Below are positions 1,818 to 59,174 of a stretch of 64,000 nucleotides of DNA, one piece after another. The translations under genes and the position numbers were made by a program. Every line of letters starts with the position of its first letter. The stretch's first letter is position 1. Below the pieces are notes generated by a model, which saw only the letters and a program-made list of their open reading frames with translations, made no database searches and was not told where the DNA came from. This DNA is from a virus (Duplodnaviria > Caudoviricetes), in IMG/VR virus record IMGVR_UViG_3300008255_000098. The stretch is one strand, 5' to 3'.

Positions 1818-2117
1818 ATGGAAACAGACATAAAAAATACTATAAGAGACCTTGTTAAAACCACTATTTCACGACTATTGGAAGAGAATAATATTGTTAG
1901 TCTTGACAGGTTTAAAAAAGAAAAAAGAGACAAAGAAGGCTATTACGGAGAAGTTCTTGTTTCAAAAGACGGAATGGTTACTTTAGACCCAAATGATTAT
2001 TACTTTATAAAACTAACTCACCGAGATCAAGCAGATGCAATAATAGATGGTAATATTGAATTGGCTGAGACCCTAGGAGCTATAAAAATTCCTTTGATAG
2101 GAAAAACTATAAAATAA
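1818..2117 (+). CDS. Hypothetical protein with Glu-motif leader
   Basis: 99-aa ORF; leader KNTIRDLVKTTISRLLEEN; CTATTTA motif at 1806-1812 just upstream. Confidence 0.75.
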   Translation: METDIKNTIRDLVKTTISRLLEENNIVSLDRFKKEKRDKEGYYGEVLVSKDGMVTLDPNDYYFIKLTHRDQADAIIDGNIELAETLGAIKIPLIGKTIK

Positions 2118-2223
2118 CTTAGTATTCCTGTAAGCCCGTTAGCATACATACCCCAAAATTGCTTCCATACTATCTTTTAAAAAGCTAACAACAAAACCAG
2201 CCGAAATATTAAAAGGAAATTAG

Positions 2224-2862
2224 ATGGAAAATGATAACTTTAACATGTTTACAGAAATAGAGAAAGATAATTTAGCAGACTCTATCAAAACTGATTTTTT
2301 TGACATCAGTAAAAAAGATAAACAGAACTTATTAAAATACAATATTGAAAAAAAAGAAATCATTTATCTAATTCCTAAAAAACCATTATTGTCTCCAGGG
2401 CAATTGCTTGGATGCAAAAATATTTTAGATAATGATGAAGAAAATTATTTTGCTAAAATAAATTCGGGAGAGTTGTCAGAAGGAGATTTAGAAATTAGTA
2501 CTCCTAATGTTGTATATGCTACAAACTTTTTTACAAGTAAAAAAGTTATGGAAACAACCCTAATGGTCGTTGGGGAGCGAATTGAAATATATAAAGTTTC
2601 TCGACATAAAATTGGAAAAACAGATTTTTCTGAACTAAAGAAAACTAGTGTAAACTACATAGTTTCACATTATATTGATGTAATTGACGGTGCTAGTAAA
2701 AAAGTTATTCAAACAAACATGTTTGAAAACACTTCTATGGTTTTTGGTACAAATTACACTACTGAAAAACTAGATATTGAATTTATAAAATATACATATT
2801 CAAACGCAAATATTGAAAAAATTATCAGTCCGTTACAAATACTTTCTACAGCTGTAAAATAA
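2224..2862 (+). CDS. Hypothetical protein
   Basis: 212-aa ORF with normal composition, co-oriented with neighbours; no motif recognised. Confidence 0.7.
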   Translation: MENDNFNMFTEIEKDNLADSIKTDFFDISKKDKQNLLKYNIEKKEIIYLIPKKPLLSPGQLLGCKNILDNDEENYFAKINSGELSEGDLEISTPNVVYATNFFTSKKVMETTLMVVGERIEIYKVSRHKIGKTDFSELKKTSVNYIVSHYIDVIDGASKKVIQTNMFENTSMVFGTNYTTEKLDIEFIKYTYSNANIEKIISPLQILSTAVK

Positions 2863-2908
2863 GTTTCAATTTACTAAGTCTTTTCCATATTTATTTGTTG
2901 GAGACTAT

Positions 2909-3718
2909 ATGAATATTAAAGATCGTTGGATGAAATTAGCTGGGATTACACCCAAAAGTCCTACAAAATCAAAACAAAATCTAAAAGAAGGTTTTGTTAA
3001 CCTTGGAATGGCTTCCCCAGGAATTATGGGTAACCCGTTTGGTCGTGGTGCAAAAAGCTTGGCAGAAGAACAAGAGCAAGATGAAGACCAAATCAAAACT
3101 AGAAAATACGGCGAAGATAAAGAGGAAGACATGGAAGTCAACGAATCACAACTCGCTGTAGACCCATTTGAAGGTCACCCGGAAAGAGGATATAACGGAC
3201 CCGATTATGACCCGAGCCAAAATCCAGAAATCCAAGCACTTCCGAGACAGATTGGTTCGCCGCTTGACGATGAGTTCTCGTTAGACAATTTTGATCCGGA
3301 AGAGGAAGGTTTATCTGAGCGACCTCCAAAATATTATAAAAAGTCAGACGATGAGGATTGGTACGGGTCAGACGATGAGGGTTGGTACGGACTAGAAGAC
3401 ATGTCTCCAGAAGAACGTGACGAACGTGAGAGAAGAGTATTTGGCGCAAGCAACAGTGCTGGTCGTAGAGGACACAGAGACGAAAGTCATAAGCCTGCTG
3501 GCAAAAAAAACCGACACCTAAAAGAAAGAGTTGAAAGTGCAGATGAGCTTCAACAAGAGTTGAAAAGATTAATTTATGAGGCAGACGACATATTTGGCCT
3601 TCTACTAGACGGAAAAACAAAGTACAATAGACAACTTTTAAAAGTAGGACGAGGATTTTTACGAAAATGCTCACGTGCTGTGTTAGACGCAACAAGTTCC
3701 TCGTTGAATAGGGAATAA
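2909..3718 (+). CDS. Acidic low-complexity protein, candidate head core/internal protein
   Basis: N-terminal RWMKLAGI, several L/V-x-E motifs (NLKEG, SLAEE, VNES, HLKER) and D/E-rich composition; ATATTTA at 2887-2893 upstream. Confidence 0.7.
   Translation: MNIKDRWMKLAGITPKSPTKSKQNLKEGFVNLGMASPGIMGNPFGRGAKSLAEEQEQDEDQIKTRKYGEDKEEDMEVNESQLAVDPFEGHPERGYNGPDYDPSQNPEIQALPRQIGSPLDDEFSLDNFDPEEEGLSERPPKYYKKSDDEDWYGSDDEGWYGLEDMSPEERDERERRVFGASNSAGRRGHRDESHKPAGKKNRHLKERVESADELQQELKRLIYEADDIFGLLLDGKTKYNRQLLKVGRGFLRKCSRAVLDATSSSLNRE
3343..3390 (+). repeat. 24-bp tandem duplication (2 copies, 1 mismatch) encoding SDDEDWYG/SDDEGWYG
   Basis: gtcagacgatgaggattggtacgg followed by gtcagacgatgagggttggtacgg. 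Confidence 0.9.
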
Positions 3719-3723
3719 TAGAA

Positions 3724-4308
3724 ATGAATTTTTCAAGCAATAGGTGGAAACAACTTGCTGGTGTCTTAAAGGAAGGTGGCAATAAGCGCATATCAGCTAT
3801 AGGGTCTGATGACAGTGTGGATGGTCCTTATACAGAAATTTCTCCTTTACAGCCTATGGAACAAGACACAAAGTGTCTGCAAGAAGGCGAAGGGGAATAC
3901 CCTGCTACTGCTAGTGAGTATGCTAAAAAATTAAATGCCGAGCATGATGGACTATCTAAATTAGTAAGCGACCAAGAACATTGGGAAAAAGTTGGCATAT
4001 ATTCCGGAGAAGACTTGGCTAGATATCTAGCTATTTCTTCTTACGTGGACACATACAAAGATTCTTATGGAATACGTCCAAGACACGTGAAGTTTAGTAA
4101 CTTATCAATTGGCCAAATTGTTGAACTAACAGACGATATTATGAAAGATGCGTTAGGGGAAGAAGAAGAAGTAGAAGAAGACGATTATGAAGATGAATAT
4201 CCTGTAGATTTCGACGATGCTGTTGGGGACAATGACCCGGCGCCTGGGGATGAATATTCTGCCCTAGAAAACGAAATGGATAGAAAACACCACGGTAGAT
4301 CTTTTTAA
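3724..4308 (+). CDS. Acidic protein with the same N-terminal RWxxLAG motif as the upstream gene
   Basis: N-terminus RWKQLAGVLKEGG, internal CLQEGE, acidic tail. Confidence 0.75.
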   Translation: MNFSSNRWKQLAGVLKEGGNKRISAIGSDDSVDGPYTEISPLQPMEQDTKCLQEGEGEYPATASEYAKKLNAEHDGLSKLVSDQEHWEKVGIYSGEDLARYLAISSYVDTYKDSYGIRPRHVKFSNLSIGQIVELTDDIMKDALGEEEEVEEDDYEDEYPVDFDDAVGDNDPAPGDEYSALENEMDRKHHGRSF

Positions 4309-4599
4309 AACCAGTCTGGCCCACTATGCTTTCCAACTAGCAATATGTGATTTATAATTTTGTAATATTTTTAATAGGTTGTAACAAAATCTTTTGATTT
4401 ACAACCATCCGGCGTTGCGGCTGCTGTGAAATTTTTAACTACAATTTCTTTTGGTAGATTGTTTCCTGTGCATTCAATAACGTCTTGACACTTATGCCTG
4501 CGACCATATCGTATGGTGTACCCCCTCGCATAGAGAAATTCCATGAGATACTAACCAAGAATAACCGGGTCAAGATCTACTACAAAAATATTAATTTTA

Positions 4600-4712: not shown

Positions 4713-4758
4713 TTTTGATAAGCCCTGGGGGGATTTTTAACCTCAGGGCTTATCAAAA
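4713..4758. terminator. Long inverted repeat, probable bidirectional intrinsic terminator
   Basis: TTTTGATAAGCCCTG...CAGGGCTTATCAAAA (15-bp perfect stem) lies between convergent genes and overlaps the stop codon of the actin-like gene. Confidence 0.6.
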
Positions 4759-5757
4759 AACTTGTGCAGCAATCAGGCAACCTTTGGCGACACTGTGTAG
4801 TGCATCAGCGGCATGACGCACTTCGCTTACCTCAAGCGGAAATTCATTTTCCGCTAATTTATCTTCAAACATTTTAACAAAGCCTTTTGCCTTTGAGGTA
4901 CCACCGGCAATTACTACTGGTAAAGGACTCACAAATTTAGGAAGATTTTTTCTTCCTTCTAAATGCACACAAAGCTGTTTAACCGTATAGTCAATTAACC
5001 TAGCATAATAAGAAGAAACTGCTGCCAAAACTGGATTTTCATTTGCTTCGCCAACAGTAAATTCTCCACCTTCTTTTTCTGCCTGGACAACAGAGTCTGG
5101 TTCCCCAGAAGCAACAGCTGACATTCTGTCAATCCAGTCACCAGATTTTGTCGTTGAAAATTTCAAAACTGGTTCACCGTTTAGCATCACGCACACATTC
5201 ACCATTCCGGCACCAAAAGAAAGAGTCACCCCCGTATAATCATCTTTTTCTAACTCGGCGTAACACAGTGCTTCGGCTTCATTTATTGCTCTAGCATCGT
5301 AACCTTGTTCAGATAATATTTTTGTTACTACGTCTTCGTGATATCCTATATCAAATTCTTCATCTTCTTGGTCAATTGGTTGTGCGGGTACACAAAAAAC
5401 AAGTTTTTCACCTGCTTTTTTCGCTTTTCCTACAACCTCTTTTAGGATATATGACAAAACTTTTCTAGCATCTTTCTCTTTTGCAGATACTACACCACGA
5501 TACATGGGACGTTTTGCGCTGTCATTTCTTTCAACTGCCTTCTCTAGTGCGTCACTTCCAAGAACTATAAATGAACCATTTTCTTCATCCTTAACAAAGA
5601 TTTTCCCCTTCAAACCCTTTTCAATCATTTTAGTTGCAATAGGGGTTGTTGGTTTTATTACATAAAATGCATCTCGGAAATCTTTATAAACAACATTTCC
5701 ATCTTTATTTTCACCAGCTAGCACTATAAACGATGTTCCGCAATCAAGACCTTTCAT
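4753..5757 (-). CDS. Actin-like ATPase (MreB/ParM/FtsA superfamily)
   Basis: Phosphate-1 GLDCGTS, connect-1 INEAEA, phosphate-2 variant SFGAGMVN, adenosine IAGGTS. Start re-set to ATG 5757, preceded by AGGAGG. Confidence 0.85.
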   Translation of the reverse strand: MKGLDCGTSFIVLAGENKDGNVVYKDFRDAFYVIKPTTPIATKMIEKGLKGKIFVKDEENGSFIVLGSDALEKAVERNDSAKRPMYRGVVSAKEKDARKVLSYILKEVVGKAKKAGEKLVFCVPAQPIDQEDEEFDIGYHEDVVTKILSEQGYDARAINEAEALCYAELEKDDYTGVTLSFGAGMVNVCVMLNGEPVLKFSTTKSGDWIDRMSAVASGEPDSVVQAEKEGGEFTVGEANENPVLAAVSSYYARLIDYTVKQLCVHLEGRKNLPKFVSPLPVVIAGGTSKAKGFVKMFEDKLAENEFPLEVSEVRHAADALHSVAKGCLIAAQVF

Positions 5758-5768
5758 ATATCCTCCTA

Positions 5769-5948
5769 GTGAACTGCTCACCTACGACAGCAAAAAAAGC
5801 CGATGGGCTGGGCTTCGGGGATCACAGGCTCATCTAAAATAAATGGTAAAAACGCCTCACCCCGTTTTGCTTTAAAAAAAACATAGGATTCAGTCCCAGA
5901 ATCCGACAATATATCTATACCTTGTTTTAAGAATATTTTTTGTTTCAT
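5769..5948 (-). mobile_element. IS200/IS605-family tnpB 3' remnant with right end / omegaRNA-like sequence
   Basis: Translates to ...LKQGIDILSDSGTES...KRGEAFLP...EPVIPEAQPIG (TnpB C-terminal tail type) and ends GAAGCCCAGCCCATCGGC...GTAGGTGAGCAGTTCAC. It abuts the RBS of the actin-like gene. Confidence 0.7.
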
Positions 5949-6415: not shown

Positions 6416-6850
6416 ATGCATCATAGTGATCCAATGAAATATACAATGGAACAACTTGTTAAAGCACTAACAGCTGAAGCTTTAGGGGAAGTTTCAAACA
6501 ACAATCTCATGTTGCAACAAGAATGCGCTTGTGAAGACAATGATGATAACGAAAATTTAGAAAACAATACTAAATGGGACCAAGTTGCACAGGCGTTGGT
6601 AGCAGAAATTAAAAATCAGTTTTCTGGCATAAGTGTTAGAGCAAACGGACCAGAAGCCGAAGAATGTATAGATAGTTTAGCTTCGCTTGTTAGTTTATAC
6701 TCTGAATATCCAATGGCATTTAAATTATTGTCCGCAGTTGAGAAAATAGCTTCCGACGAAACAGACTCACGAGTATTTGCTTCTTTAATAGTTCAGGCAA
6801 TGAATAGCGATGCGGCAGATGAGTGGAAAAGATATAACCAGCATAAGTAG
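6416..6850 (+). CDS. Hypothetical protein with Glu-motif leader
   Basis: Start re-set to ATG 6416 (or 6434), after CTATTTA at 6404-6410; leader MEQLVKALTAEALGEV. Confidence 0.65.
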   Translation: MHHSDPMKYTMEQLVKALTAEALGEVSNNNLMLQQECACEDNDDNENLENNTKWDQVAQALVAEIKNQFSGISVRANGPEAEECIDSLASLVSLYSEYPMAFKLLSAVEKIASDETDSRVFASLIVQAMNSDAADEWKRYNQHK

Positions 6851-6977: not shown

Positions 6978-7808
6978 ATGGTCGATAGAGATAAACAACA
7001 AACAGACGAATTTAAAAAAGCAAACTCAAAAATTGTAACAGTTGGTGGAGAAAAAAAACTTCTATTAATGGACGATGATGAACCTAAAAATTCTGATGAG
7101 GAAATTGATTTACAGGAAATAATTGAAACTTTGGTCAGAGAAGCTTTGGAAGAAAACGAATTGTACAAGGATTATAATAAAAAAAAACTTTGTGAAGGAT
7201 ATATTGACGAAGCTGAATTCCCAAATGGTTTCAATATAGAAGAATTCAATAAAATTTCAAGTTTTAAAAATCGTGTCTCATATGCTAAAAAACATCTCCA
7301 GCGAGTTGCTGGTGGTTCTGGCAGAGTAGTCTTTGTAGTAGACCCAGAAACAGTTGTTAAAATTGCATTAAATAAAAAGGGCCAAGCTCAAAATAGTGCA
7401 GAATGGGACATTAGCAATATGGGGTATTCTGCTGTAACAAAGGTAAAAAATGCGGACACAGACAAATATTTGTATCTAGAAGTTGAACGAGCAAAAAAAC
7501 TCAACATGCGTGATTGGAAAAAAGTAACTGGTTGGAATTTTTATGACTGGATGGCTGTATTGAGAAATTACGTTGATGAACGTTTTAATAAAAAACGGGC
7601 TAGGAACATTGTTCCTGAAGACTTTGAAGAAATTGAAGAATCAGAACTTTTTTTAACCATTGTTCAAATGATTACAGATTTTAACATGCCAGCTGGTGAT
7701 ATACAGCGACCTTCCTCTTGGGGTATTGTTGAAAGAGACGGCGCAGAAACTCCTGTTTTAGTTGATTACGGATTGACTGGCGAAGTATATAAAAGCTACT
7801 ACAAATAG
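6978..7808 (+). CDS. Atypical protein-kinase-like fold protein
   Basis: Gly loop AGGSGRVVF, VVKIA Lys, QNSAE alphaC Glu, catalytic-loop variant GDIQRPSSWG, LVDYGL. Acidic leader containing LQEIIETLVREALEEN. Confidence 0.7.
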   Translation: MVDRDKQQTDEFKKANSKIVTVGGEKKLLLMDDDEPKNSDEEIDLQEIIETLVREALEENELYKDYNKKKLCEGYIDEAEFPNGFNIEEFNKISSFKNRVSYAKKHLQRVAGGSGRVVFVVDPETVVKIALNKKGQAQNSAEWDISNMGYSAVTKVKNADTDKYLYLEVERAKKLNMRDWKKVTGWNFYDWMAVLRNYVDERFNKKRARNIVPEDFEEIEESELFLTIVQMITDFNMPAGDIQRPSSWGIVERDGAETPVLVDYGLTGEVYKSYYK

Positions 7809-7809
7809 T

Positions 7810-9834
7810 TTAAGCAACTTCTTTTTTGTATGCGTGCAAAATATTTGGTATAAACTTTTTATATCTAAATTTTTTACTTAGCAACATGGACATAAGTTTT
7901 TCATAAGAGTTGATATCTTCCCAAGTTGTCCCTCTCCCAAAAAATATTTTTGCCATTTCATTTGGGTCTGTTGTAATCGGCTCATCTGATAGTTTTATTT
8001 TCTGCACATTTTTTTGTCGTCCAGTAGGTAGAACGGTTTTAATTTTTTGTTTTCGCATCCCATCTCTAAAATTCAAAACAAAACGAATATATTCATCTTC
8101 GTTTTCTGTTGGCAACTTAATTTCTCTAGCAATGTTACTCAACAACTTGTTTCTGTCCCTTGCTTTATAAGAACTATCTTTAGGAGCCCCTGAGTTAACA
8201 TCCGTCATCCACTGAAGATTTCCTACAAATATATCTACTTGAATAAATCCTGGTTCATCTCCACGAGACCCGTCAGATAAAAAGTTATTTATTTGTTTGT
8301 TTGAACTATCTACCAGCGGCGCTAAAATATGAAATTGACTTAACCCTTTGTTAATTGAATATTTCTCAGCGTCGCTTGTTTGTAACAGCCTATCAAGGCT
8401 ACTCCAAATATTTTTTTTGTCTTTTGAGGAAACTCCTAAAAATTTTGCTAAGTCTTTGCCGTCAATTGCAACGTCTATGTCGTTAAAAAATTCTTTTGTT
8501 TTATTACCAACAACATTGAATGGAATCCCGCCTAATCCACTATTTTTTAGTGCATTTGCTATAGCTGGCTCTAAAAGTGCTTTTGGAACTACAGAATTCA
8601 TTTCATCAAATACATTGCCTCCCTCTGTAAGGAAGTGCAAAGTTTTACTAAGTTTTTGTTCTGGTAGTAGTTCTCTTTTCATAAACATCTCAGCAACTTC
8701 CTTCGGGGGAATGCCTTGGGACAGTTTATTTTTAATTGCTTTTACAAATCCAAGATTTAATTTAATATCATTTTTTGTATCTTCAACCTTACGAGGGATT
8801 GTGATCCACTGTTGGCCTGTTTTTTTGAAATCTTCTTCGGCTCTATGTATTTCTTCTTCCCAAGCAGAAAGATATTTTTCTATATTTTCTGGGTCATTTT
8901 TAATATCTTTTTTGAATGTTCTAATTGCGCTTTCAAGCATTTTTAGAAACCTTCGATTTTCATCACCCTTTTTGAGAAATTTTTCTGTGTCAACAATTTT
9001 TAGCAATTCGCCCTCTGGGTTTTTGACAACTATACCCTCTACCTCATCACCAAATTTACTAGATACGTTTTTCTGTAATATTTGTTGTTTGGCTTCAAGT
9101 CCTAAATCTTGGATTGCTTTAAGAAGTTTTTGTTTCAATTCTTTTTCTGCTGGTTTACGAGCTGGTTTAGATAAGAAATTTCCGTGCTTTTCAATAATAT
9201 CTTCAAGCGAAACTATTATTGAAGAACTAAAATCTAGATCATGTAAATCAACATTTGGGACAGAGAAAAATTTTACTTTACTATATTTGTTAGCTTTGTT
9301 TGCAAAAGATTCCCAAATTTTTGGATTTGATAAAACGCCTGTGTTATCTTTGGAAACAGAAGTTTTCATATTAAATATTACAAGAATTCCGTTTCCAATT
9401 TTAGCCTCATCGTATATCACAATATTGTGATCATACGTTGGAACTGCCTCGCCAGCGACTTCAAGAGTATCAGTAAATTCAAAACCAAATTCTTCAGACA
9501 ACTCCTTACCTATTTCAGCCCACGGAATTTCAGATAATAACTCAAAATATTTCTTAAAACTAGTCATGAAATACAAATCTGGGATTTCCTCAGCTGAGTA
9601 CCAAATTTGTGTCTTTGAACGAAGATAAAATCTTCCGTTATCAATACCAGCCGCTCGATAACTACCGTCGATCTTTTCTGATACATGAAATTTAGCTTTA
9701 TCTAAATTCCATGCTTTTAAAAAGTTCAAAAGTTTCTGTGGAGACAATTTTTCAAGATGGACTACGCCTTCATTTAAATTTTTAAATGCTCGTGCTACTT
9801 CTTCGGTTATTAGCTTTTGTAAAAAAAATTTCAT
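7810..9834 (-). CDS. Fusion of an ATP-dependent ligase (RNA-ligase-like) nucleotidyltransferase domain and a Pol-beta-type nucleotidyltransferase domain
   Basis: Ligase motifs I EKIDGS, III GEAV, IV EGIVVK, V KIV. The second domain after LTEGGNVF has GN...NDIDVAID and QVDIF. Confidence 0.7.
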   Translation of the reverse strand: MKFFLQKLITEEVARAFKNLNEGVVHLEKLSPQKLLNFLKAWNLDKAKFHVSEKIDGSYRAAGIDNGRFYLRSKTQIWYSAEEIPDLYFMTSFKKYFELLSEIPWAEIGKELSEEFGFEFTDTLEVAGEAVPTYDHNIVIYDEAKIGNGILVIFNMKTSVSKDNTGVLSNPKIWESFANKANKYSKVKFFSVPNVDLHDLDFSSSIIVSLEDIIEKHGNFLSKPARKPAEKELKQKLLKAIQDLGLEAKQQILQKNVSSKFGDEVEGIVVKNPEGELLKIVDTEKFLKKGDENRRFLKMLESAIRTFKKDIKNDPENIEKYLSAWEEEIHRAEEDFKKTGQQWITIPRKVEDTKNDIKLNLGFVKAIKNKLSQGIPPKEVAEMFMKRELLPEQKLSKTLHFLTEGGNVFDEMNSVVPKALLEPAIANALKNSGLGGIPFNVVGNKTKEFFNDIDVAIDGKDLAKFLGVSSKDKKNIWSSLDRLLQTSDAEKYSINKGLSQFHILAPLVDSSNKQINNFLSDGSRGDEPGFIQVDIFVGNLQWMTDVNSGAPKDSSYKARDRNKLLSNIAREIKLPTENEDEYIRFVLNFRDGMRKQKIKTVLPTGRQKNVQKIKLSDEPITTDPNEMAKIFFGRGTTWEDINSYEKLMSMLLSKKFRYKKFIPNILHAYKKEVA

Positions 9835-26458: not shown

Positions 26459-27735
26459 TTATATTACTTCCTTAAACGTTTCTGTATATTGTTCGCTGAT
26501 AGCCGAAAAGCTGTAATTTTCTTGCAGCTTCTTCGCCAGTTCCTTTGCCCATTGTTGAGGCACGCCAGGACTGTGGTAAAATTTATTTAACTTTCTTTTG
26601 ACATCTTCTTCAATTGGATTTGCCCATTGCATTTCTGCAAGAAAAATTTTATTATCTACTCTTGTTTCATGAATTTTCACAAGATTATAATCTATTTTAA
26701 CAAACTTTCCTAAATTCAAAAATTCTGTATGAGCACTCCAATTTGTAGCTATTACTGGTAATCCGCAGGCAGCTGCTTCTAAAATCGGAAGCCCGAAACC
26801 TTCGCCTCTAGTTAAACTAACTAAAGCTTTGACCTTGGGGTGTCGGTACAAACTGGCAACTTCATTGTCGGTCATATCTCCATGTAGCAGATAAAACTTT
26901 GGGCCTAGACCTTTTTTTGTTTCAAGCAATACTTTAGAAAGTATATTCACCGTATTTGCTCTATCCATTTTTGAGTTTCGTCCAAAATTTGTCTTTATGA
27001 TAACTCCAACTTCTGGGCTGTCTTTAAACTCTTCTGATAACCACTTGATGGTATAAACTAAATTTTTCCTATCATTTTCTGGGTTATTGCCGCAGAATTG
27101 ACCAAATACTAAAAAATTAAAATCAGTAGTAATTTTTGATAGGTCTAAAACAGAATCTGTTGAAACAGTTGAATCTACAAGACTAACTAAGCAGTTATCT
27201 GTAAACGCTTCTGGTAAGACTACAATTTTAGTAGTACACTCGCCAGTATTTAAAAACACCCTTTTGACAAATTCTGACGGAACCACAACAAGGTCCATTT
27301 GGTTTACACAGCTACCCATTCCGGGGAACACCTATCTGTTTCAACCGCCGCTGTAATTCCTATATTATAGTCAGCTAGAAAGGGGTTCCATTCGTTTGGA
27401 AGTTGTAGTTGCATTGAAACATCATAACTATCTGATACAACTGCGTGTTGTATCAAGCGACCTACCAACCCATCGTAGGCGTCAGTATTAACTACCCAAG
27501 GTGTAACTCCCCAGCGTAATGGTTCTATAAAAAGTTCCAGATCATCTCTATTATCTATTTGTTCAAAAAGCCACCTAGCAACTTGTCTGGAATGAACTCC
27601 ATATCCTGACTGGGTAAGAACAGGGGCACGTAAAATTACTTTTTTCTTTTGCTTTTCTTTTTTAAGAAATAAATCTTCTGTATCGTTTTTTAAAAGATCG
27701 TCTATATTTCCAAGTTCTTGTATTTGTTTACTCAT
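26459..27735 (-). pseudogene. GT-B (GT4-like) glycosyltransferase split by a single frameshift near 27310
   Basis: The 5' ORF ends ...AVETDRCSPEWVAV* and the overlapping frame continues CVNQMDLVVVPSEF. The C-terminal half has the EGFGLPILEAAACG GT4 motif. One extra base would join them. Confidence 0.8.
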
Positions 27736-29258
27736 CGACTTCTCCTATTAGATGTCTTTCCTTTTGGACGACTCTTCTTTTTTACTTTAGTTTTACTGGT
27801 TTTTGGTAATGATGTTGTAGCTTTATTTTGTACTGATTGTATTGAAGAAATTCTTTTCTTTTCAACAGTTTTTGTAGAAGGTGTGGAGGTTTCTGGTGTG
27901 ACCTCAGGCCCCGAGGTCAATTCACGCCCTAAAGATGGTTCGAGCGACATCAATTCCCAGCGATTTTGTTGTCCGGTCTTTTGGAATCTATCAATACAAT
28001 CCGTTAATTTTTCGTCCCACTTTTTGATCATGTCTTCATACTTGAATTCTGACTCAACGTATGCTTTGCATTTTTCGCTAAGTACTTTTTTTTCTTCAGG
28101 AGTATAATCATGAACAGTCATGAATGCTTTTGCTAGATCTTCGGTGCTTGCATAATCTTCATAGATATATGGAACTAATTGAGACCCAACCAAACAACGC
28201 TTTGCAGGGTCTAACGCAACCCCGTGTGTAGAACCATCACGATAATCTACAACTTTACTTGTTTCGCCTCCTGTTTTAAGTGCGATTATAGGCTTTCCTA
28301 CTTGCATAGAAATGAGTGTAGACAATCCAAAACCTTCATTTTTTGATACGTTTACAGTAACATCTACAAGATTATAAAGTGTATTCATTTTATCAAATTG
28401 AAGTTTCTCTGTTGAAAACCATACATTATTTTGTAATTGAAGTCGCTCAGTTACTTGCAACAAGTCTGGACCTTCTGGGTCTTTTGGGTCCGTGTGCATT
28501 ATTAGAAGGGCATTTCTGTGCCCGTGTTTGGCCTCTAGGTTATCTAGAAATAACTTCCAAGAATCTAATACATCAGCTGGTAATTTTCTAGTTGCATTTC
28601 TATTGACCCACAACGCTTTAAACCAATCTGCTCTAGGTCCAAAGTTTTGCACCAAAAGGGTGTTTCTTTCCTCAACGGGAATCTCAAAATAAACATTTTT
28701 GGGAAAGGAGTGCGGAATGTATGTTGTAGTTTCTGGAAAATGCGGCTTAACAAGTTCATATGTCTTATATGACAAACAACTAATGAGGTCAGTAGATTCA
28801 TACCACACCCTATTATAATCTGGATAAGGATCATTGTCCCAAACATGCCAATAAGCAATTGGACACAATTGGTGAACCTCATCTTCGATTTCCCAGAGCC
28901 AAATAAACTGGCGTGGATCTGTGAAGATCAACAAAACATCTGGCTTTTCTGTTGCTAATATTTGTCTAATCATGTCATGAGTACCAAACCCGTCAACAGG
29001 CTTAATAATAAAATCATCATTGACTTTAATTGTTTGGTAGTCTTGATGTTTGATCGCCCCGCCCAAACAACGAAAAGAATATTTTCCTGTTTGAATCAAA
29101 CCGTCGATTAAAAATCTAGCTTGAATACCAACTCCACTAGGAGCTAACGGGTGGTCAGACAATAATAATACTTTTTTCTTTTTAGTCGGTTTGATAAAAA
29201 GATCGTCTAATAATTTATTATCAACGGTTAATAAATCTTCTGTCATTAATTTCTCCAT
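27732..29258 (-). CDS. GT-B (GT4-like) glycosyltransferase with basic C-terminal tail
   Basis: VLLLSDHPLAPSGVG..., NRNATRK, EGFGLSTLISMQVGKPII. Confidence 0.85.
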   Translation of the reverse strand: MEKLMTEDLLTVDNKLLDDLFIKPTKKKKVLLLSDHPLAPSGVGIQARFLIDGLIQTGKYSFRCLGGAIKHQDYQTIKVNDDFIIKPVDGFGTHDMIRQILATEKPDVLLIFTDPRQFIWLWEIEDEVHQLCPIAYWHVWDNDPYPDYNRVWYESTDLISCLSYKTYELVKPHFPETTTYIPHSFPKNVYFEIPVEERNTLLVQNFGPRADWFKALWVNRNATRKLPADVLDSWKLFLDNLEAKHGHRNALLIMHTDPKDPEGPDLLQVTERLQLQNNVWFSTEKLQFDKMNTLYNLVDVTVNVSKNEGFGLSTLISMQVGKPIIALKTGGETSKVVDYRDGSTHGVALDPAKRCLVGSQLVPYIYEDYASTEDLAKAFMTVHDYTPEEKKVLSEKCKAYVESEFKYEDMIKKWDEKLTDCIDRFQKTGQQNRWELMSLEPSLGRELTSGPEVTPETSTPSTKTVEKKRISSIQSVQNKATTSLPKTSKTKVKKKSRPKGKTSNRRSR

Positions 29259-29329
29259 TTGAGATAGCAGTTTGTTTCACTTAAACCATTCTTATGGATA
29301 ACAGGTATTTTGTATCATACTAGATGGCA

Positions 29330-30331: not shown

Positions 30332-30541
30332 TTATTTGTACACTCGCTATGTTTATATTCACCTATATGATCGTGAAATTATATTTTAGTCTACACTCAT
30401 CACCTGTGAATCAACAGTATACGACTTTTGGAGGAAAAATTATATCTTTAGACAGTATTTTTATACCATTTTTAATAAAAGTGTTTAAGTCCTCGATAAT
30501 GGTGACTTTTCATGTAAAAACATTTTTGTTTTTGTAATTTA

Positions 30542-31504: not shown

Positions 31505-31530
31505 ATTTATTTTGATTTTTTAAACAAGTT

Positions 31531-31888
31531 TTACAAAAGCTCTGACCTATCTATGCCAATAACTGCATACATTGGTAAAACAACATAAACTGCATCATAG
31601 CTTTCCTTCAATTTCAACGACCCTTTATTAAGGAAAACCCTAATGTTGTTATCTGCTAATATTTTAGTTATATTTTGTGGTATTTGCACTAACGGTTCAC
31701 AAGAGTTACCTAACATACAAATACCTACCATGTATAGAAATAAATTTTCCTATACCAGACGAAAAGGTACTAAACCTATTTTCTTGTTCCGAGTCGGTAA
31801 TATTAGGTGGACAAAATGCACACCTAAGTTCTAATAAAAATGTATTTTCTAATTGAGTCACGTTATTTCCAATACGAATAAAGCCCAT
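31531..31888 (-). other. Two short overlapping ORFs (60 and 66 aa), possibly one frameshifted small gene
   Basis: Co-oriented, overlapping by 26 nt, filling the gap between the epimerase and fcl; no confident motif. Confidence 0.3.
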
Positions 31889-32873: not shown

Positions 32874-33490
32874 TTTTTAATATATAGGGCATCACCCCAA
32901 GTTTGTTCTGGGGCCTCTGTTATAACTCTTTTAAAGCCAAATCCATCTAAATGTTTATCTATTTCTTCAACAAGACAACAATTTTTATACATTTCTACGA
33001 AATTAATTTCTGTATATACTGCACTAAAGTTTTCAAGCAGTCTGCCAAACCCACGTAATACTTTAAGTTCTGCGCCTTGAACATCTAAATTTAAAAAATC
33101 ATAATCAGAAATAACAATATCTTTAATACTGTCAAACCTTTTTGTTTTCATTGAAATGTGATCGGTATATTGTATGTGAGGATATTGTTGTGCGTGAACA
33201 CCCAACTCTAACATAGAACTAGATTGGCCATTATTTGCGATATTGAATGTTATTTCTTCATCGTCTACGTCTGATAAAGCGACATTTTTATAATAATTTT
33301 TAATAGGATAAAAGTTTGTTTTATCAAACAGGTGTTTCATTAATTTTTTGTTTGCTTCAAACCAAACAACATTTTTAATGTTTGCATTAACATAAGCTTC
33401 CGTCTCTTCACCTAAGTGTGCCCCTACATGGATCACTCCTTTAAATGGTGCTCCATTTACCATTACACATTTTTCCATTGGTATATACAT
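32870..33490 (-). CDS. FkbM-family SAM-dependent methyltransferase
   Basis: VIHVGAHLGEE, WFEAN, SSSML, LNLDVQGAELKVLRG, IYTEI-like tail, WGDALY. Confidence 0.9.
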   Translation of the reverse strand: MYIPMEKCVMVNGAPFKGVIHVGAHLGEETEAYVNANIKNVVWFEANKKLMKHLFDKTNFYPIKNYYKNVALSDVDDEEITFNIANNGQSSSMLELGVHAQQYPHIQYTDHISMKTKRFDSIKDIVISDYDFLNLDVQGAELKVLRGFGRLLENFSAVYTEINFVEMYKNCCLVEEIDKHLDGFGFKRVITEAPEQTWGDALYIKK

Positions 33491-45962: not shown

Positions 45963-46322
45963 ATGTCAACAAACGATAATGATCTCTCTGAGAGGCTAAT
46001 AATGGAGGCCCCTATTAGAGTTTCTGGCGAAGAACAACTCAATGAAATTAAGTTATCTTGGGCTGGAAAGATATTTTTTGCAGGAGCAGCTGCTTATATA
46101 GCAGGTAAAGGGTTGCAACAAAAAATAAAACTTCCAGTTAAGGTCAGGGGCACGCCTAAACAAATGAAAGCGGTTATTGACGCTATTATGGGTTCAAAAG
46201 AGTTTCAACAAGAAATAGGTCGTCCGGGAGCAACTATTGACCAAGTAATTGAAAAACTTCAACTTAGAAATTTGACAAAAGCTCGTTTTAGACAGCTAAC
46301 TGGCCTGCCATTTCCATTATAA
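45963..46322 (+). CDS. Hypothetical protein with Glu-motif leader
   Basis: LSERLIMEA and QLNEIK in the N-terminus; CTATTTA at 45923-45929 upstream. Confidence 0.7.
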   Translation: MSTNDNDLSERLIMEAPIRVSGEEQLNEIKLSWAGKIFFAGAAAYIAGKGLQQKIKLPVKVRGTPKQMKAVIDAIMGSKEFQQEIGRPGATIDQVIEKLQLRNLTKARFRQLTGLPFPL

Positions 46323-46943
46323 GCCTAGTTCTTGTAATTCTTTAATTGTGGTAGCCGCATCAACATGTTCAATAGCCATGCCGCCGAAATTTCTCCACGG
46401 AACTATATATTTTGGCATATCGTCTATTAAAAGAGGAATGTTTCCTCTTTTAAGGACATTTCTGATTTCTTCATGTTTTGTGTGGGTGATAATAATCTTA
46501 TTTTTTCCTAGATTCAGTTCACGTTTACACCAGTCTATTTTTCCAAGTTTTGAATTTGGTCCCATCGGTCCAGTACATGCAACTGGATTTTTTGGTTGAA
46601 TATATTCCCACAAATCTTTACCATCTGGTAACCATTCCAATTCGGACCACCAGCGGCGGTTGTTTGACACCAAACTATACATCAAATTACGCACGTGCTT
46701 CTTCTCAGTACCCCAGCAAACGTCCTCAAAAATAAATTTAGAGCCTAGATTGCTGGATAAAAGTTCACCCCCCTGTTGCGTTATAGCTTTTTTGGCGGCA
46801 GCATAAAGTTTTGGATATTTTGTTTTATAAAAATTTTTATTTTTATCAACTTTTTCGACGAATTCATTCATGGTCTGCAATGCGCCACCCATGTAGTCGC
46901 AAAGTGTTCCATCAAGATCACAAAATATTTCGTATTTTTCCAT
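46317..46943 (-). CDS. HAD-superfamily 5'(3')-nucleotidase-like phosphatase
   Basis: IFCDLDGTLCDY (DxDG) and LLIDD. Confidence 0.8.
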   Translation of the reverse strand: MEKYEIFCDLDGTLCDYMGGALQTMNEFVEKVDKNKNFYKTKYPKLYAAAKKAITQQGGELLSSNLGSKFIFEDVCWGTEKKHVRNLMYSLVSNNRRWWSELEWLPDGKDLWEYIQPKNPVACTGPMGPNSKLGKIDWCKRELNLGKNKIIITHTKHEEIRNVLKRGNIPLLIDDMPKYIVPWRNFGGMAIEHVDAATTIKELQELGL

Positions 46944-55697: not shown

Positions 55698-55714
55698 TTA
55701 TTCCTACCAGATGT

Positions 55715-56527
55715 TTATTTTTCTTCGTCATTGCCTGACCATAAAATATCATATTGACCAGACATATCTCCACCAAGAGGGTTACCTCCCGTGCCAGAAA
55801 TTTTGCCAGAAGACTGCACCGCCCCTGTACCTACACCAATAGCACTAATTTCGTTTATCTTACTAAAATCAGAAATTATTTCTTCCAACTCTTTAATAGA
55901 TTTTTCTGGCGATGTATGTAAAATAGTTGTACCCCCATTTGCAATAAATTTATTCACAAATTTTAGTCTATCATCAATTAGAATATCATACCTGCTATTA
56001 GCAAATTTCTCTTTGTTTTGCGTGCAATAAAAGTTATTGTACATCCCTTTAAAGTTTTTATCAGCCCACTCATGTTTTTCCTTTTCGCAGGTTGGATTAG
56101 AGTCTATTGGGGCAGTTAAAATATTAGGTAGCTTTCCAGTAAAATTTTTAGCAGCATTGAGCATATTTTTAGCTCCTGGTAAAACCTCTAACCCTATAAA
56201 AAATCCTGGCTGCGAAGCAAAAGAATAAGTAAGCCCTCTGTATTTATTCCAAGCTTTTTTAAGCTTTGCCATTACTGGATCTTTTTGTTGACCTCTAAAT
56301 TTTTCTCTTAGTTCATCTGTCGGCAAACCCTGTAAATCAGGAACTTGTGAAAACAATTCATCAAGTTCTTTTTTAGAATTTTCTACTATCTTATTATGTA
56401 CAAGTCCACCATGAAAATCTGCTAATACTCCATCCATATCAAAATAAACTGTTATTTCTGGTTTTTCTAAAGAACTAAGTTCGTTTTCTACTAATAGTTT
56501 AATTAAGTTTTTAATTTTGTGTGTCAT
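55715..56527 (-). CDS. HAD 5'(3')-nucleotidase-like phosphatase with Glu-motif leader
   Basis: IKNLIKLLVENEL leader, VYFDMDGVLADF, ILTAP, ILIDD; acidic/Gly tail after INEIS. Confidence 0.8.
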   Translation of the reverse strand: MTHKIKNLIKLLVENELSSLEKPEITVYFDMDGVLADFHGGLVHNKIVENSKKELDELFSQVPDLQGLPTDELREKFRGQQKDPVMAKLKKAWNKYRGLTYSFASQPGFFIGLEVLPGAKNMLNAAKNFTGKLPNILTAPIDSNPTCEKEKHEWADKNFKGMYNNFYCTQNKEKFANSRYDILIDDRLKFVNKFIANGGTTILHTSPEKSIKELEEIISDFSKINEISAIGVGTGAVQSSGKISGTGGNPLGGDMSGQYDILWSGNDEEK

Positions 56528-57507
56528 CCGTACTCGTGCTTTGTTTGAAGTTTTATTTGTATTTCTTTAAACTTATTTATATCTATGAACCTAATATCGT
56601 ATCGGCTATCTAATTTATAATCAAATACTGATTTAATTATTGGTATAGAGGAATGCATTCCAGCGGTAAGTAAGTTTGTAGGAATTTCTTTTCCAGTTTT
56701 TGGTGTGCCGCCGTTTTTAAGTATTATTTGTGCTTCCCTGGGAAAACTTTCAAGTGGCGTCTCTACGGCCACTAGAAGCCTAGATTTAGTAGGAATTACT
56801 AAACGGGAGGAACTTATAACCCACTCACCTTCAGACTTATAAGTATGTATTCCTTTTAGAACCGAGTATTTTATCAAATTTTGAAATGTTCTTGGATTAA
56901 TAGAGGAGATGTCTTCTGCCGTTGTGTTTTTTAAAATTTCTTCCCAAAAATACTTCGTTAAATCTTCTAGAGAGTTTATTTCGACTTCTCCATTTTCATA
57001 TCTTTTATTTATATCATAAGATGACACATAACCATCACGCATAAGTGACCCAAGATGTCTAACGCCATCATCATTTGAAGTAAGAGCACTCCTATATATT
57101 TCTCTAAAAATATTGTCTATTATTTTTCTATTTCCTTTGACGCCTTGGTCAGCGTTGAAAATTCTACGCAGCATAGCCATATTTTTATTAGTTAGCTGCT
57201 CGATATTATCATATTCAACACGTCTAAGATTTCCTTCATTCACCGATAAAGTATTTTTAGCGTTCATTACTACAACTGCGTTTCTAAATCCAATACCGAG
57301 CCAGTGCATCAAAATTCTATTATTATCTGAGATACCAGATATCCCTTCAAGCACACCTGCGGACAAATCTTTAAGATTCTTATCTGCGGTTGGGGAAACA
57401 GAGGTAATCAGCCAAAATACATTAGGATTTCCAGAAGTAGAACGTACCTCGTGTAAAACATCTTTTGTATAAATGTCAATTATAAATTTTAATTGTCTGG
57501 AAATCAT
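56524..57507 (-). CDS. Hypothetical protein, paralogue of 57504-58496
   Basis: Shared VFWxxTS, WLGI.RNAV, YDN...NM..L.R.F and YKSEGEW; leader LKFIIDIYTKDVLHEV. Confidence 0.75.
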   Translation of the reverse strand: MISRQLKFIIDIYTKDVLHEVRSTSGNPNVFWLITSVSPTADKNLKDLSAGVLEGISGISDNNRILMHWLGIGFRNAVVVMNAKNTLSVNEGNLRRVEYDNIEQLTNKNMAMLRRIFNADQGVKGNRKIIDNIFREIYRSALTSNDDGVRHLGSLMRDGYVSSYDINKRYENGEVEINSLEDLTKYFWEEILKNTTAEDISSINPRTFQNLIKYSVLKGIHTYKSEGEWVISSSRLVIPTKSRLLVAVETPLESFPREAQIILKNGGTPKTGKEIPTNLLTAGMHSSIPIIKSVFDYKLDSRYDIRFIDINKFKEIQIKLQTKHEYG

Positions 57508-58496
57508 AAAAGTTTTTCATGATACTTTTCACGATACTTTTCAAATTTTTCCATTGAGATAAAGTTAACTTGATATCGACTGGATAAATTATACTTATTA
57601 GTAAGCTCTATTAGCCTGAGCGCACGTTTTTCGGTTTGTAATTTTGGTGGATCTGGCCAGGCACCTTGTTTAGGAACTTGTGTGTATTCTTGTCGTGCTT
57701 GGTTAGAAATGGACTTTGGGTCAACGTCAAGAGCGATAAATATAGTACTTCCATTTGGGATTTCCATAGTATCCCCCTTTATCATCCACTCACCTTCAGA
57801 TTTATAAATTTCTCCTATGCGCTTTAGTGCCATGACAATTAAGTTTTCCCACACACTAGTTGGGAAATCCTTAGCTTCTTCTACAAGCCATTTTCCTTTA
57901 TTCTCGGCAATTTTAATAGTTGTTTTTTGTACCCAAGCTGCTAATTCTTTTATAGAATTTATATTTGGTTTTTCGTCTTTGTAGGCAGACCCGTATAAAG
58001 TGGCTGCCAACGTTCCATACTCAATATAATACAAAATAGTGGCAACAGATTTACTAGGTGGTTTTGATTGTTTGCCAGCCCACTGGACATAACCCATTAC
58101 AGTTTGCATTAAACCAAACCAATCATAATCTCGTTCTGGCGAGCGATCAAACAATCTAAAAAGTGTTGTCATGTTTTTTGAAACAAGATAATGTGGGTTA
58201 TCGTACATTATTCTGCTAACATTATTCAGTTTTAAGAATTTCTTAGCCGGGATGACTATAACAGCATTTCTAGCGATACCTAGCCACTGAGTTACAATTT
58301 CTTTCGTTCCAGATATACCTTTAACTCCTTTTAGTTTTCCAGTAGAGATCTGTTCTAAGAATTTTTCTGAGTGTTCATCTATAGAAGTCACCATCCAAAA
58401 AACAGTTGGAATGTCTTTTTGTGTGTAGGATACCTCAATTAGAACTTTTTCTAATTCAGAATTTATTAATTTTTGTAAAACTTTCATTTTACTCAA
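57504..58496 (-). CDS. Hypothetical protein, paralogue of 56524-57507
   Basis: Same shared motifs; leader LQKLINSELEKVLIEV. Confidence 0.75.
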   Translation of the reverse strand: MSKMKVLQKLINSELEKVLIEVSYTQKDIPTVFWMVTSIDEHSEKFLEQISTGKLKGVKGISGTKEIVTQWLGIARNAVIVIPAKKFLKLNNVSRIMYDNPHYLVSKNMTTLFRLFDRSPERDYDWFGLMQTVMGYVQWAGKQSKPPSKSVATILYYIEYGTLAATLYGSAYKDEKPNINSIKELAAWVQKTTIKIAENKGKWLVEEAKDFPTSVWENLIVMALKRIGEIYKSEGEWMIKGDTMEIPNGSTIFIALDVDPKSISNQARQEYTQVPKQGAWPDPPKLQTEKRALRLIELTNKYNLSSRYQVNFISMEKFEKYREKYHEKLL

Positions 58497-58514
58497 TCAT
58501 TGTCCATTTGTTGT

Positions 58515-59174
58515 TTAAAAATATCCATAATCTACCAATACTACATTTCCGTTTGAGGTTATTCCCCAGTGGTCGAGCCTGTCAATGTCGGCGACACCTA
58601 ATTTTGTTAAGTCGTATATCCCTTTTAAAAGTTGCATGTCAAACTTATTTAAATCTTCAACTTCTATTTTTTTATTCGTTCCAACATAAATCTCATCTTC
58701 GAACCATAAATTCCTATGGTTGATTGTTTCTTTGATGGCATCGCTAAGATTATTAGTATGTTCTATTTTAGGAATAAAATCATCTATAATTTGTGTGTCG
58801 ATAGTTAGTTTTGAATATGCTTGTTTGTTGTCTATAAACACCTGAACCGCCTCAGAAATTATCCAAAAGTAATTGTCTGCAAAATCATATATTTTTGCTA
58901 AATATTTCTTGGGAATAGTGCTGTTTGTATATACAGATACTTCTTGTTTATTTTGTAACCAACGACTCGGAATCTGCACTTTCAGTACTTTACCTGAACC
59001 GAGAGCGAAGACTCTTCTTGTACTGCCAGAGCCTAATTCAATTAAATGTTTTTCAGCGTATTCATTTATCTCTTTTATAGTTTTAAGACTTTTCAGAACT
59101 TTAAAACTAAAGCCTCTATAACTCTCTAAAAGTATATTGTTGACCTCTTCATTTATTATATCAAGTATATTCAT
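58515..59174 (-). CDS. Atypical protein-kinase-like fold protein, paralogue of 6978-7808
   Basis: LGSGSTRRVF, VLKV, QNKQE, ADIDRLDHWG, LVDYGY. Start re-set to MNILDIINEEV (59174). Confidence 0.7.
   Translation of the reverse strand: MNILDIINEEVNNILLESYRGFSFKVLKSLKTIKEINEYAEKHLIELGSGSTRRVFALGSGKVLKVQIPSRWLQNKQEVSVYTNSTIPKKYLAKIYDFADNYFWIISEAVQVFIDNKQAYSKLTIDTQIIDDFIPKIEHTNNLSDAIKETINHRNLWFEDEIYVGTNKKIEVEDLNKFDMQLLKGIYDLTKLGVADIDRLDHWGITSNGNVVLVDYGYF

What the first reader, a model, noticed from the sequence alone, without database searches (positions are those of the whole stretch)
1818..59174. Candidate capsid-packaged effector system: about 12 unrelated proteins share an amphipathic leader ending in hydrophobic-x-Glu
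Seen: the leaders TIRDLVKTTISRLLEE (1818), KQNLKEG (2909), LAGVLKEG (3724), EQLVKALTAEALGE (6416), LQEIIETLVREALEE (6978), LQKLITEEVARAFKNLNEG (9834), LSERLIME/QLNE (45963), IKNLIKLLVENE (56527), LKFIIDIYTKDVLHE (57507), LQKLINSELEKVLIE (58496) and ILDIINEEVNNILLES (59174). The enzyme cores behind them are unrelated: kinase, ligase/NTase, HAD and unknown folds. The genes fall in two clusters (1.8-9.8 kb and 54-59 kb), and several follow the candidate late motif. Established: T4 prohead protease gp21 cleaves after Glu at (I/L)-x-E, and T4 internal proteins carry cleavable capsid-targeting leaders. Inference: this leader is a modular packaging tag that loads a toolbox of host-takeover enzymes into the head for injection with the DNA.
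Basis: partly seen in the sequence, partly recalled or inferred. Interest (0 to 1): 0.85.

Follow-up and report, generated by a model that had tools for sequence, protein, structure and literature searches.

The report
Shared head-targeting leader peptides in a jumbo phage
About one gene in five in this part of a large uncultured T4-type phage starts with one of two short leader peptides ending in hydrophobic-x-Glu, one of which copies the scaffold protein's tail; these are most likely removable tags that load proteins into the phage head, a wider version of what phage T4 does.

Summary
A strict class I pattern (hydrophobic at -14, -11, -10, -6 and -2 from a Glu) ends within the first 75 residues of 16 genes in 112.5 kb of this phage, against 1.05 expected from shuffles and 4 internal hits. 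In the window alone it is 6 against 0.54.

Class II is (R/K)(F/W/L)xKLAG(I/V) followed by L-x-E. It starts five genes, two of them in the window. Its only other occurrence is the last residues of the scaffold protein, encoded just before a T4 gp23-type capsid gene 9-10 kb upstream of the window.

Both motifs recur in hundreds of related uncultured phages and in cultured Flavobacterium phage immuto. There the scaffold tail motif sits beside a gp21-type protease, and a hydrophobic-x-Glu site always lies between the motif and the protein body.

Best reading (0.6): these are T4-like capsid-targeting propeptides cut off by a Glu-specific prohead protease. Packaging, cleavage and injection are not shown. 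No protease was found in the 129.5 kb of the 201-kb contig that I could read.

This is a new variant of a known kind. Overlapping-window notes on this genome describe the same system.

The parts
2..808 (+). Body of a 287-aa gene. Its 19-residue strict class I leader (MIKKLEQLIETIVKSVVTE) ends at window base 1.
1818..1886 (+). Strict class I leader (23 aa, ends LLEE) of the 99-aa ORF 1818-2117. A promoter-like CTATTTA lies 12 nt upstream.
2909..2989 (+). Class II leader (RWMKLAGI, then a spacer to NLKE|G) of the 269-aa ORF 2909-3718.
3724..3774 (+). Class II leader (RWKQLAGVLKE|G) of the 194-aa ORF 3724-4308.
6434..6490 (+). Weak class I-like N-terminus (MKYTMEQLVKALTAEALGE) of the ORF ending at 6850. 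It is not separable from noise.
6978..7154 (+). 59-residue N-terminal segment of the 276-aa ORF 6978-7808, with the strict class I motif at residues 45-59. The core is weakly similar to the kinase-like family.
9769..9834 (-). Looser class I-like leader (22 aa, ends NLNE|G) of the 674-aa ORF 7810-9834. The RNA-ligase match is weak.
56480..56527 (-). Short class I-like leader of the 270-aa 5'(3')-deoxyribonucleotidase-like ORF 55715-56527. The enzyme domain starts at about residue 24.
57448..57507 (-). Class I leader (20 aa, ends VLHE|V) of the 327-aa ORF 56524-57507. L6 and E20 are invariant in 11 family members.
58434..58487 (-). Strict class I leader (18 aa, ends VLIE|V) of the paralogue 57504-58487.
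59124..59174 (-). Strict class I leader (17 aa, ends ILLE|S) of the kinase-like ORF 58515-59174.
45963..46007 (+). Claimed leader LSERLIME. Neither a pattern nor a model supports it.

Best explanation
The window belongs to a large uncultured myovirus with a T4-type head: a gp23-family capsid protein preceded by a long acidic gp22-like scaffold. Two kinds of short N-terminal peptide act as head-targeting propeptides.

Class I is an amphipathic helix of about 17-23 residues ending in L/I/V-x-Glu. It is the leader of the conserved small head-core protein encoded next to the protease and scaffold in relatives. In this phage it has spread to many unrelated proteins. By analogy with the T4 capsid targeting sequence, it should bind the scaffolding core while the prohead assembles.

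Class II, (R/K)(F/W/L)xKLAG(I/V), is the same peptide that ends the scaffold protein. It should therefore occupy the scaffold tail's docking site in the prohead. The capsid protein is my guess for that site.

In both classes a hydrophobic-x-Glu site lies between the tag and the protein body. A gp21-type Glu-specific prohead protease would cut there, free the mature protein inside the head and let the tag escape.

Shown: the motifs, their enrichment and N-terminal position, their conservation, and their link to the head module.

Inferred: binding, cleavage, packaging and, least certain, injection with the DNA.
For: 1. Enrichment and position. 16 genes have the strict motif near the N-terminus against about 1 expected, with 4 internal hits. 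In 80 independently chosen loci with related capsid genes, the motif ends in residues 1-50 at 1.3 per 1000 aa, against 0.05-0.2 elsewhere.

2. Head link. Four consecutive small genes with near-identical 22-residue leaders lie directly upstream of the scaffold and the Pfam Gp23 capsid gene. In relatives the order is portal, a ~290-aa protein, S77 protease, a class I protein, a ~165-aa protein, scaffold, capsid protein. T4 gp67, a core protein cut by gp21, also has a 22-residue amphipathic start ending FAE.

3. Class II. It occurs at five N-termini and at the scaffold's extreme C-terminus, and nowhere else. In the 80 related loci it is found 56 times at scaffold C-termini, 2 times at N-termini and never internally, and the reversed-sequence control gives 0. 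For in-frame MQKLAGI in IMG/VR, 89 hits are at C-termini of scaffold-like proteins, 25 are at N-termini and 9 are elsewhere. 57 of 62 C-terminal cases have [LIVM]xE within 20 aa before the motif, and 25 of 25 N-terminal cases have a hydrophobic-x-E within 6 aa after it. Scaffold alignment A2 shows a nearly invariant Glu (LNE) and nearly invariant R, W, L, G and an invariant A of RWxxLAG.

4. Selection acts on the peptide, not on recent DNA copies. The leaders average 30% amino-acid and 48% nucleotide identity. The terminal Glu is at least 90% conserved in 60 members of the kinase-like family and invariant in the 56524 family.

5. The leader is an add-on to the fold. Solved deoxyribonucleotidases align from query residue ~24. 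Kinase structures align from model residue ~21-24. The leader helix of the 56524 model has pLDDT 36-50.

6. Co-regulation. [ACT]TATTTA lies within 60 nt upstream of 9 of 23 leader genes and 15 of 93 other genes, most of them structural, against 0.033 expected per gene.

7. Protease. Pfam PF03420 is above its cut-off in all 7 related contigs of 87 kb or more that I searched.

8. Precedent. T4 gp21 cuts after L/I-x-E, and 10-19-residue CTS propeptides load diverse internal proteins (PMC9026906, PMC3012670).
Against: - There is no protein-level evidence of any kind.
- No gp21-type protease or portal gene was found in record bases 1 to about 129,500. The remaining 72 kb could not be read, and the contig may be only about half a genome.
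- In the kinase-like and 56524 families nearly every member has the leader. It could therefore be an integral part of those proteins rather than a detachable tag.
- An HMM trained only on relatives' leaders scores several window leaders within the decoy range.
- The strict pattern was chosen after seeing five examples.
- Some candidate cargo, such as a dNMP nucleotidase and a SOD-like protein, has no obvious early role in infection.
Confidence: 0.6

Rival explanations
1. The leader is an integral N-terminal helix with another role, such as oligomerisation, docking to a common phage or host partner, or regulation. It is neither cleaved nor used for packaging.
For: Nearly all members of the kinase-like family and the 56524 family keep it. 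Tandem fusions keep it before each unit (P0007). The kinase-like model gives the helix pLDDT 80-87.
Against: This does not explain several things: why the same helix heads the small core proteins beside the scaffold and protease, why a Glu with L/I/V two residues before it is the conserved end point in unrelated families, why class II equals the scaffold's C-terminal peptide, or why the helix lies outside the structurally aligned cores.
Confidence: 0.2
2. The tags do bring proteins into the prohead, but these proteins serve assembly (extra core or scaffold components, head-size control). They are degraded or expelled, not injected as effectors.
For: In T4 gp67, gp68 and gp22 are cut into fragments and leave the head (PMC9026906). 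The four small tagged proteins next to the scaffold look like core proteins rather than enzymes.
Against: Several tagged proteins have enzyme folds (nucleotidase, kinase-like) with no plausible scaffold role. T4 Alt and the internal proteins show that tagged enzymes can be kept and injected.
Confidence: 0.12
3. The similarity is chance or a by-product of the composition of AT-rich N-termini.
For: L/I/V-x-E is a very short motif. Two listed leaders (6416, 45963) do not rise above noise.
Against: 0 of 2000 shuffles reach the observed count. The motif is 10- to 20-fold enriched at N-termini in 80 other loci. The reversed-sequence control for class II gives zero.
Confidence: 0.02
4. The leaders are export or membrane-targeting signals.
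For: They are N-terminal and partly hydrophobic. The window also encodes true lipoprotein-type signals (59486-61207).
Against: The leaders are charged amphipathic helices with no uninterrupted hydrophobic core and no signal-peptidase site (sequence). The true signal peptides in the window look quite different.
Confidence: 0.03

Closest known systems
T4 capsid targeting sequence (CTS) of internal proteins IPI-III and Alt, removed by prohead protease gp21
   Same: A short N-terminal propeptide (10-19 aa in T4, 16-23 aa here) ending in L/I-x-Glu. It is shared by otherwise unrelated proteins in a phage with a gp23-type capsid and a gp22-like scaffold. The cargo includes enzymes, as with T4 Alt.
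   Different: The sequence is different and longer. About 23 tagged genes were seen in 112.5 kb, against a handful in T4. There is a second tag class that T4 lacks. Function is untested, and the protease was not located in this contig.
T4 prohead core proteins gp67 and gp68
   Same: Small proteins encoded between the portal, protease and scaffold genes. T4 gp67 starts with a 22-residue amphipathic segment ending FAE. The class I small proteins lie in the same neighbourhood.
   Different: No detectable sequence homology. The hydrophobic register differs by two positions. Here the family has expanded to four or five copies next to the scaffold.
Propeptides of phiKZ, 201phi2-1 and SPN3US head and ejection proteins
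   Same: Jumbo phages in which many head proteins are cut after Glu by a gp21 homologue (PMC9026906, PMC5694885).
   Different: Those sites are S/A-x-E and the propeptides are often over 100 residues, with no common leader. Here the residue two before the Glu is L/I/V and the leader itself is shared.
Scaffold C-terminal coat-binding peptides (P22 scaffold, herpesvirus scaffold tail) and encapsulin cargo-loading peptides (from my own knowledge)
   Same: A short conserved peptide at the end of a scaffold or cargo protein docks on the inside of an HK97-fold shell. In herpesviruses the maturation protease cuts it off. Class II has the same placement and a flanking cleavage-type site.
   Different: No sequence relation. 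Binding of RWxKLAGI to the capsid protein is only a guess. I did not find reuse of a scaffold tail as an N-terminal cargo tag described anywhere.

Membership tests
T4-type CTS / gp21-processed head proteins | The phage has a gp23-family major capsid protein and a gp22-like scaffold core. | tested here: met
   Pfam Gp23 and PHROG major head protein (E 2.6e-71) match the 640-aa gene. A 766-aa acidic protein lies just upstream, and its N-terminus resembles the scaffolds of relatives.
T4-type CTS / gp21-processed head proteins | A gp21-type (Peptidase_S77) prohead protease is encoded by the phage. | tested here: inconclusive
   Not found in record bases 1 to about 129,500 by tblastn or by three profiles. 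72 kb could not be read, and the contig may be about half a genome. It is present in 7 of 7 related contigs of 87 kb or more.
T4-type CTS / gp21-processed head proteins | A short N-terminal leader ending in L/I-x-Glu. | tested here: met
   All class I and class II leaders have L, I or V two residues before a Glu at residue 14-27; in gene 6978 it is at residue 59.
T4-type CTS / gp21-processed head proteins | The leader is shared by proteins that are otherwise unrelated. | tested here: met
   All-against-all blastp of the cores gives only one paralogue pair and two weak matches among 23 proteins.
T4-type CTS / gp21-processed head proteins | The leader is sufficient for packaging and is removed in the virion. 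| not testable with these tools
   This needs virion proteomics or fusion experiments.
phiKZ-type propeptide processing | The cleavage motif is S/A-x-Glu. | tested here: not met
   The residue two before the Glu is L, I or V in every leader, which is the T4 rule, not the phiKZ rule (PMC9026906).
Scaffold-tail or cargo-loading peptide that docks on the capsid protein | A conserved peptide at the extreme C-terminus of the scaffold, separated from the body by a protease site. | tested here: met
   56 of 56 motif hits on the gene upstream of the capsid gene are C-terminal. The alignment shows LNE followed by RWxxLAG. 57 of 62 have the site in the other clade.
Scaffold-tail or cargo-loading peptide that docks on the capsid protein | The peptide binds the inner face of the capsid protein. 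| not testable with these tools
   This needs prohead cryo-EM or binding assays.
Sec or lipoprotein signal peptides | An uncharged hydrophobic core of 10 or more residues followed by a peptidase site. | tested here: not met
   The leaders have a charged residue every 2-4 positions.

The most novel reading that the evidence does not exclude
Class II tags are copies of the scaffold protein's own C-terminal docking peptide, moved to the N-terminus of cargo proteins. The phage would then load cargo by imitating its scaffold, much like encapsulin cargo-loading peptides. Together with class I, this would give a sequence rule that predicts the packaged, and perhaps injected, proteome of a large clade of uncultured jumbo phages. 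It would also give a short portable tag for loading foreign proteins into such heads.
Probability: 0.35. Interest if true: 0.8.

Novelty: new variant of a known kind. Interest (0 to 1): 0.62.

Why it matters
If the tags work as proposed, one could read from sequence alone which proteins a whole clade of uncultured T4-type jumbo phages carries inside its heads. That clade spans hundreds of IMG/VR contigs and includes cultured Flavobacterium and Microcystis phages. Here the tagged set would be more than 20 proteins, including kinase-like, nucleotidase, ligase-like and possibly ADP-ribosyltransferase-like enzymes.

The proposal also points to a specific peptide, RWxKLAGI, as the scaffold's contact in the prohead. 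It shows how a scaffold tail could be reused as a cargo address. The idea can be tested directly in a cultured phage.

Tried and rejected
- Megablast of structural genes against cultured phages found no match. An exact-pattern search for this contig in IMG/VR found none. No whole genome is held for the window.
- Protease hunt. I walked the 201-kb ENA contig and a 91-kb Logan contig with all 12 look-ups and reached record bases 1 to about 129,500. tblastn and profiles built from 2 relatives, from relatives plus IMG/VR, and from the four closest relatives found nothing. Two look-ups were lost on variant or terminal contigs. One metagenome scan with the closest relative's protease returned no contig from this phage's samples.
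- The two trypsin-like proteases at 59486-61207 were considered as the processing enzyme. I rejected them because both carry lipoprotein-type signals and so should be exported.
- An HMM of five near-identical head-module leaders did not pick up the window leaders. An HMM trained on relatives' leaders, dominated by one orthologous family, scored the window leaders within the decoy range. A hydrophobic-register pattern was the better descriptor.
- A complex prediction of the capsid protein with the scaffold's last 60 residues gave no verdict. It counts neither for nor against binding.
- PDB sequence searches for the ligase-like and kinase-like proteins found nothing useful. Fold search of the 56524-family model found no match.
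- The word-indexed homologue search gave few hits for the kinase-like protein.
- Literature searches for the peptide strings and for CTS in metagenomes returned nothing relevant.
Full report
**What the window is.** The 64-kb window (35% G+C) lies in a 201,145-bp ENA metagenome contig; window base x is record base 31,990 + x. It encodes:
- a baseplate wedge protein, a tape-measure-like 1605-aa protein and large fibre-like proteins;
- sugar-nucleotide and glycosyltransferase genes, and a ribonucleotide reductase;
- an actin-like protein and two secreted trypsin-like proteases.

By walking along identical contigs I read record bases 1 to about 129,500. Nine to ten kb upstream of the window lies a 640-aa capsid gene that matches Pfam Gp23 and the PHROG major head protein. 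It is preceded by a 766-aa very acidic scaffold-like protein. Before that come a 159-aa protein, four small genes and two tail-sheath paralogues. The nearest cultured relatives are distant: Flavobacterium phage immuto and Microcystis phage Mel-JY01, with capsid identity of 32-44%. IMG/VR holds hundreds of closer relatives at 50-88%. CheckV rates related contigs of about 190 kb as about 50% complete, so this contig may be only part of the genome.

**Checking the observation.** All the quoted peptides are present. The four small genes upstream of the scaffold, and a fifth nearby, start with nearly the same 22 residues, of the form MK(L/V/I)(T/S)KxQLxxLVxxAVRKxLxE.

From these I took a strict register: hydrophobic at -14, -11, -10, -6 and -2 from a Glu. 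Results on 116 ORFs (34,577 aa) of record bases 1-112,522:
- The motif ends in the first 75 residues of 16 genes, and internally 4 times in three times as many residues.
- Shuffled N-termini give 1.05 +/- 1.02, and none of 2000 shuffles reach 16.
- For window genes alone it is 6 against 0.54, again 0 of 2000.

Status of the listed leaders:
- Strict window members are 1818, 6978, 58487 and 59174, plus the gene 2..808, whose leader ends at window base 1.
- 57507 is the paralogue of 58487 (E 2.7e-32), and its orthologues carry the strict motif.
- 56527 scores above the decoys with a leader HMM, and 9834 is marginal.
- 6416 and 45963 are not separable from noise.

**A second motif.** Genes 2909 and 3724 belong to a different class, (R/K)(F/W/L)xKLAG(I/V) followed by L-x-E. 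This 8-residue pattern occurs at five N-termini, at the last residues of the scaffold (NRWQLLAGIKK) and nowhere else. An earlier first-stage note on the overlapping window pointed to the scaffold tail; I tested it here.

**The link to the head is general.**
- In 80 IMG/VR loci chosen only by capsid similarity, the strict class I motif ends in residues 1-50 at 1.3 per 1000 aa, against 0.05-0.2 elsewhere.
- The usual gene order there is portal, a ~290-aa protein, S77 protease, a class I protein, a ~165-aa protein, scaffold, capsid.
- In this phage and its closest relative (86% capsid identity), the portal-protease block is replaced by tail sheath genes, and the class I small genes are multiplied.
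- The scaffold of 41 distinct relatives ends in ...LNE-G-x-E-x-x-RW-x-x-LAG-I-x-K, with the Glu and most of RW..LAG conserved in 90% or more of the sequences (A invariant).
- The class II pattern hits 56 scaffold C-termini, 2 N-termini (both in the closest relatives) and no internal site. Reversed sequences give none.

In a second, immuto-like clade, I examined 123 in-frame MQKLAGI occurrences:
- 89 end scaffold-like proteins. Of 62 complete ORFs of this kind, 45 have a called gene downstream, and for 26 of those it is the capsid gene. 39 of the 62 loci hold a gp21-like protease.
- 25 start small, diverse proteins.
- 9 lie elsewhere.

A hydrophobic-x-Glu lies within 20 residues before the motif in 57 of 62 scaffolds, and within 6 residues after it in 25 of 25 N-terminal cases. 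The tag is therefore always on the far side of a cleavage-type site. The cultured phage immuto has all three elements.

**Is the leader a module?**
- The cores are unrelated by blastp, apart from one paralogue pair and two weak matches.
- The leaders are only 30% identical in protein and 48% in DNA, so they are not recent copies.
- Solved deoxyribonucleotidases align with the nucleotidase-like protein (ORF 55715-56527) from residue ~24.
- The kinase-like protein (58515) gave a confident model (pLDDT 92.5). Its matches to protein kinases (Z up to 9.2) begin at residue 21-24, just after the leader helix.
- That family has 918 metagenomic relatives at E <= 0.001, and most keep a leader. The terminal Glu is at least 90% conserved.
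- In the 56524 family, L6 and E20 are invariant, and the leader helix is modelled with low confidence.
- One relative carries two tandem leaders with a remnant of the kinase-like family's N-terminus between them. Another is a tandem fusion with a leader before each unit. Both suggest shuffling at leader boundaries.

**Expression.** A promoter-like [ACT]TATTTA lies within 60 nt upstream of 9 of 23 leader genes and of 15 other genes. Most of those others are structural: neck, baseplate, fibres. The expectation is 0.033 per gene.

**Mechanism.** T4 gp21 cuts after L/I-x-Glu. Propeptides of 10-19 residues (CTS) bind the scaffolding core and load unrelated internal proteins and the ADP-ribosyltransferase Alt. 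The T-even internal proteins share only the CTS (PMC9026906, PMC3012670, PMC5694885). T4 gp67 itself begins with a 22-residue amphipathic stretch ending FAE.

The system here fits this scheme, with two additions: the scale, about 23 tagged genes in 112.5 kb, and a second tag identical to the scaffold tail. I propose that class I binds the core and class II binds the site used by the scaffold tail, perhaps on the capsid protein. A Glu-specific prohead protease would then remove both. Binding, cleavage, packaging and injection are all inferred.

**Main weaknesses.**
- There are no protein data.
- No S77 protease or portal gene lies in the 129.5 kb I could read, although all seven related contigs of 87 kb or more have one.
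- The near-universal presence of the leader within two families also fits an integral helix.
- I chose the pattern after seeing examples, though I then tested it on independent loci.

**Verdict.** This is a real, conserved pair of N-terminal tags tied to the T4-type head module. It is most likely a broader variant of the T4 capsid-targeting system, and it can be tested in a cultured relative.

Noticed in passing
window 4753-5781 (-): A 342-aa actin-like protein matches Pfam Volactin (E 8e-63). It lies among the tagged genes. An actin homologue in a T4-type jumbo phage is unusual.
   Followed up: no
window 59486-61207 (-): Two tandem trypsin-like (Trypsin_2) proteases with lipoprotein-type signal peptides (LFGC, IVSC) lie right next to the 55.7-59.2 kb cluster of tagged genes.
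   Followed up: partly
upstream of window genes 1818, 2909, 6314, 10453, 14942, 16578, 23835, 34003, 45963, 48093, 49034 and others: A promoter-like [ACT]TATTTA lies 9-56 nt before 24 genes against about 4 expected. It is shared by structural genes and tagged genes, so it is a candidate late promoter.
   Followed up: partly
L003 14205-15023 (-), 2.8-3.6 kb before the window: A DUF7178 protein carries the strict class I motif at its extreme C-terminus (...AAIIQETIRAILQEV). This may be a C-terminal version of the tag.
   Followed up: no
L160 and L163 (IMG/VR relatives): The tblastn match to the capsid protein spans 2.6-2.75 kb instead of 1.9 kb in the table of related loci, which hints at an inserted element. 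My own ORF calls gave ordinary 637-aa genes, so this is unresolved.
   Followed up: no
L013 5230-7071 (-), a JGI variant of the region before the contig start: A 613-aa protein has an internal HicA-toxin domain (Pfam E 5.7e-11), flanked by low-complexity acidic and basic stretches.
   Followed up: no
P0007 and P0160 (metagenomic relatives): There are fusion proteins with repeated leader-like linkers. P0007 is a tandem kinase-like fusion. P0160 is a 56524-family protein with two leaders and a remnant of the kinase-like N-terminus between them.
   Followed up: partly
window 46317-46943 (-): A second HAD-type protein (208 aa) starts directly with the DxDGT motif and has no leader. It is a natural untagged comparison for the tagged nucleotidase at 55715-56527.
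   Followed up: no
window 27304-33490 (-): A block of sugar genes (GDP-mannose 4,6-dehydratase, two epimerase/reductase-like genes, glycosyltransferases) lies between the tail genes.
   Followed up: no
record about 106-129 kb (L145, L146): Beyond the window lie DnaB with an intein, DNA polymerase III alpha, a SOD-like protein with a class I-like start, a CCA-adding enzyme and the large terminase, which sits far from the capsid gene.
   Followed up: partly
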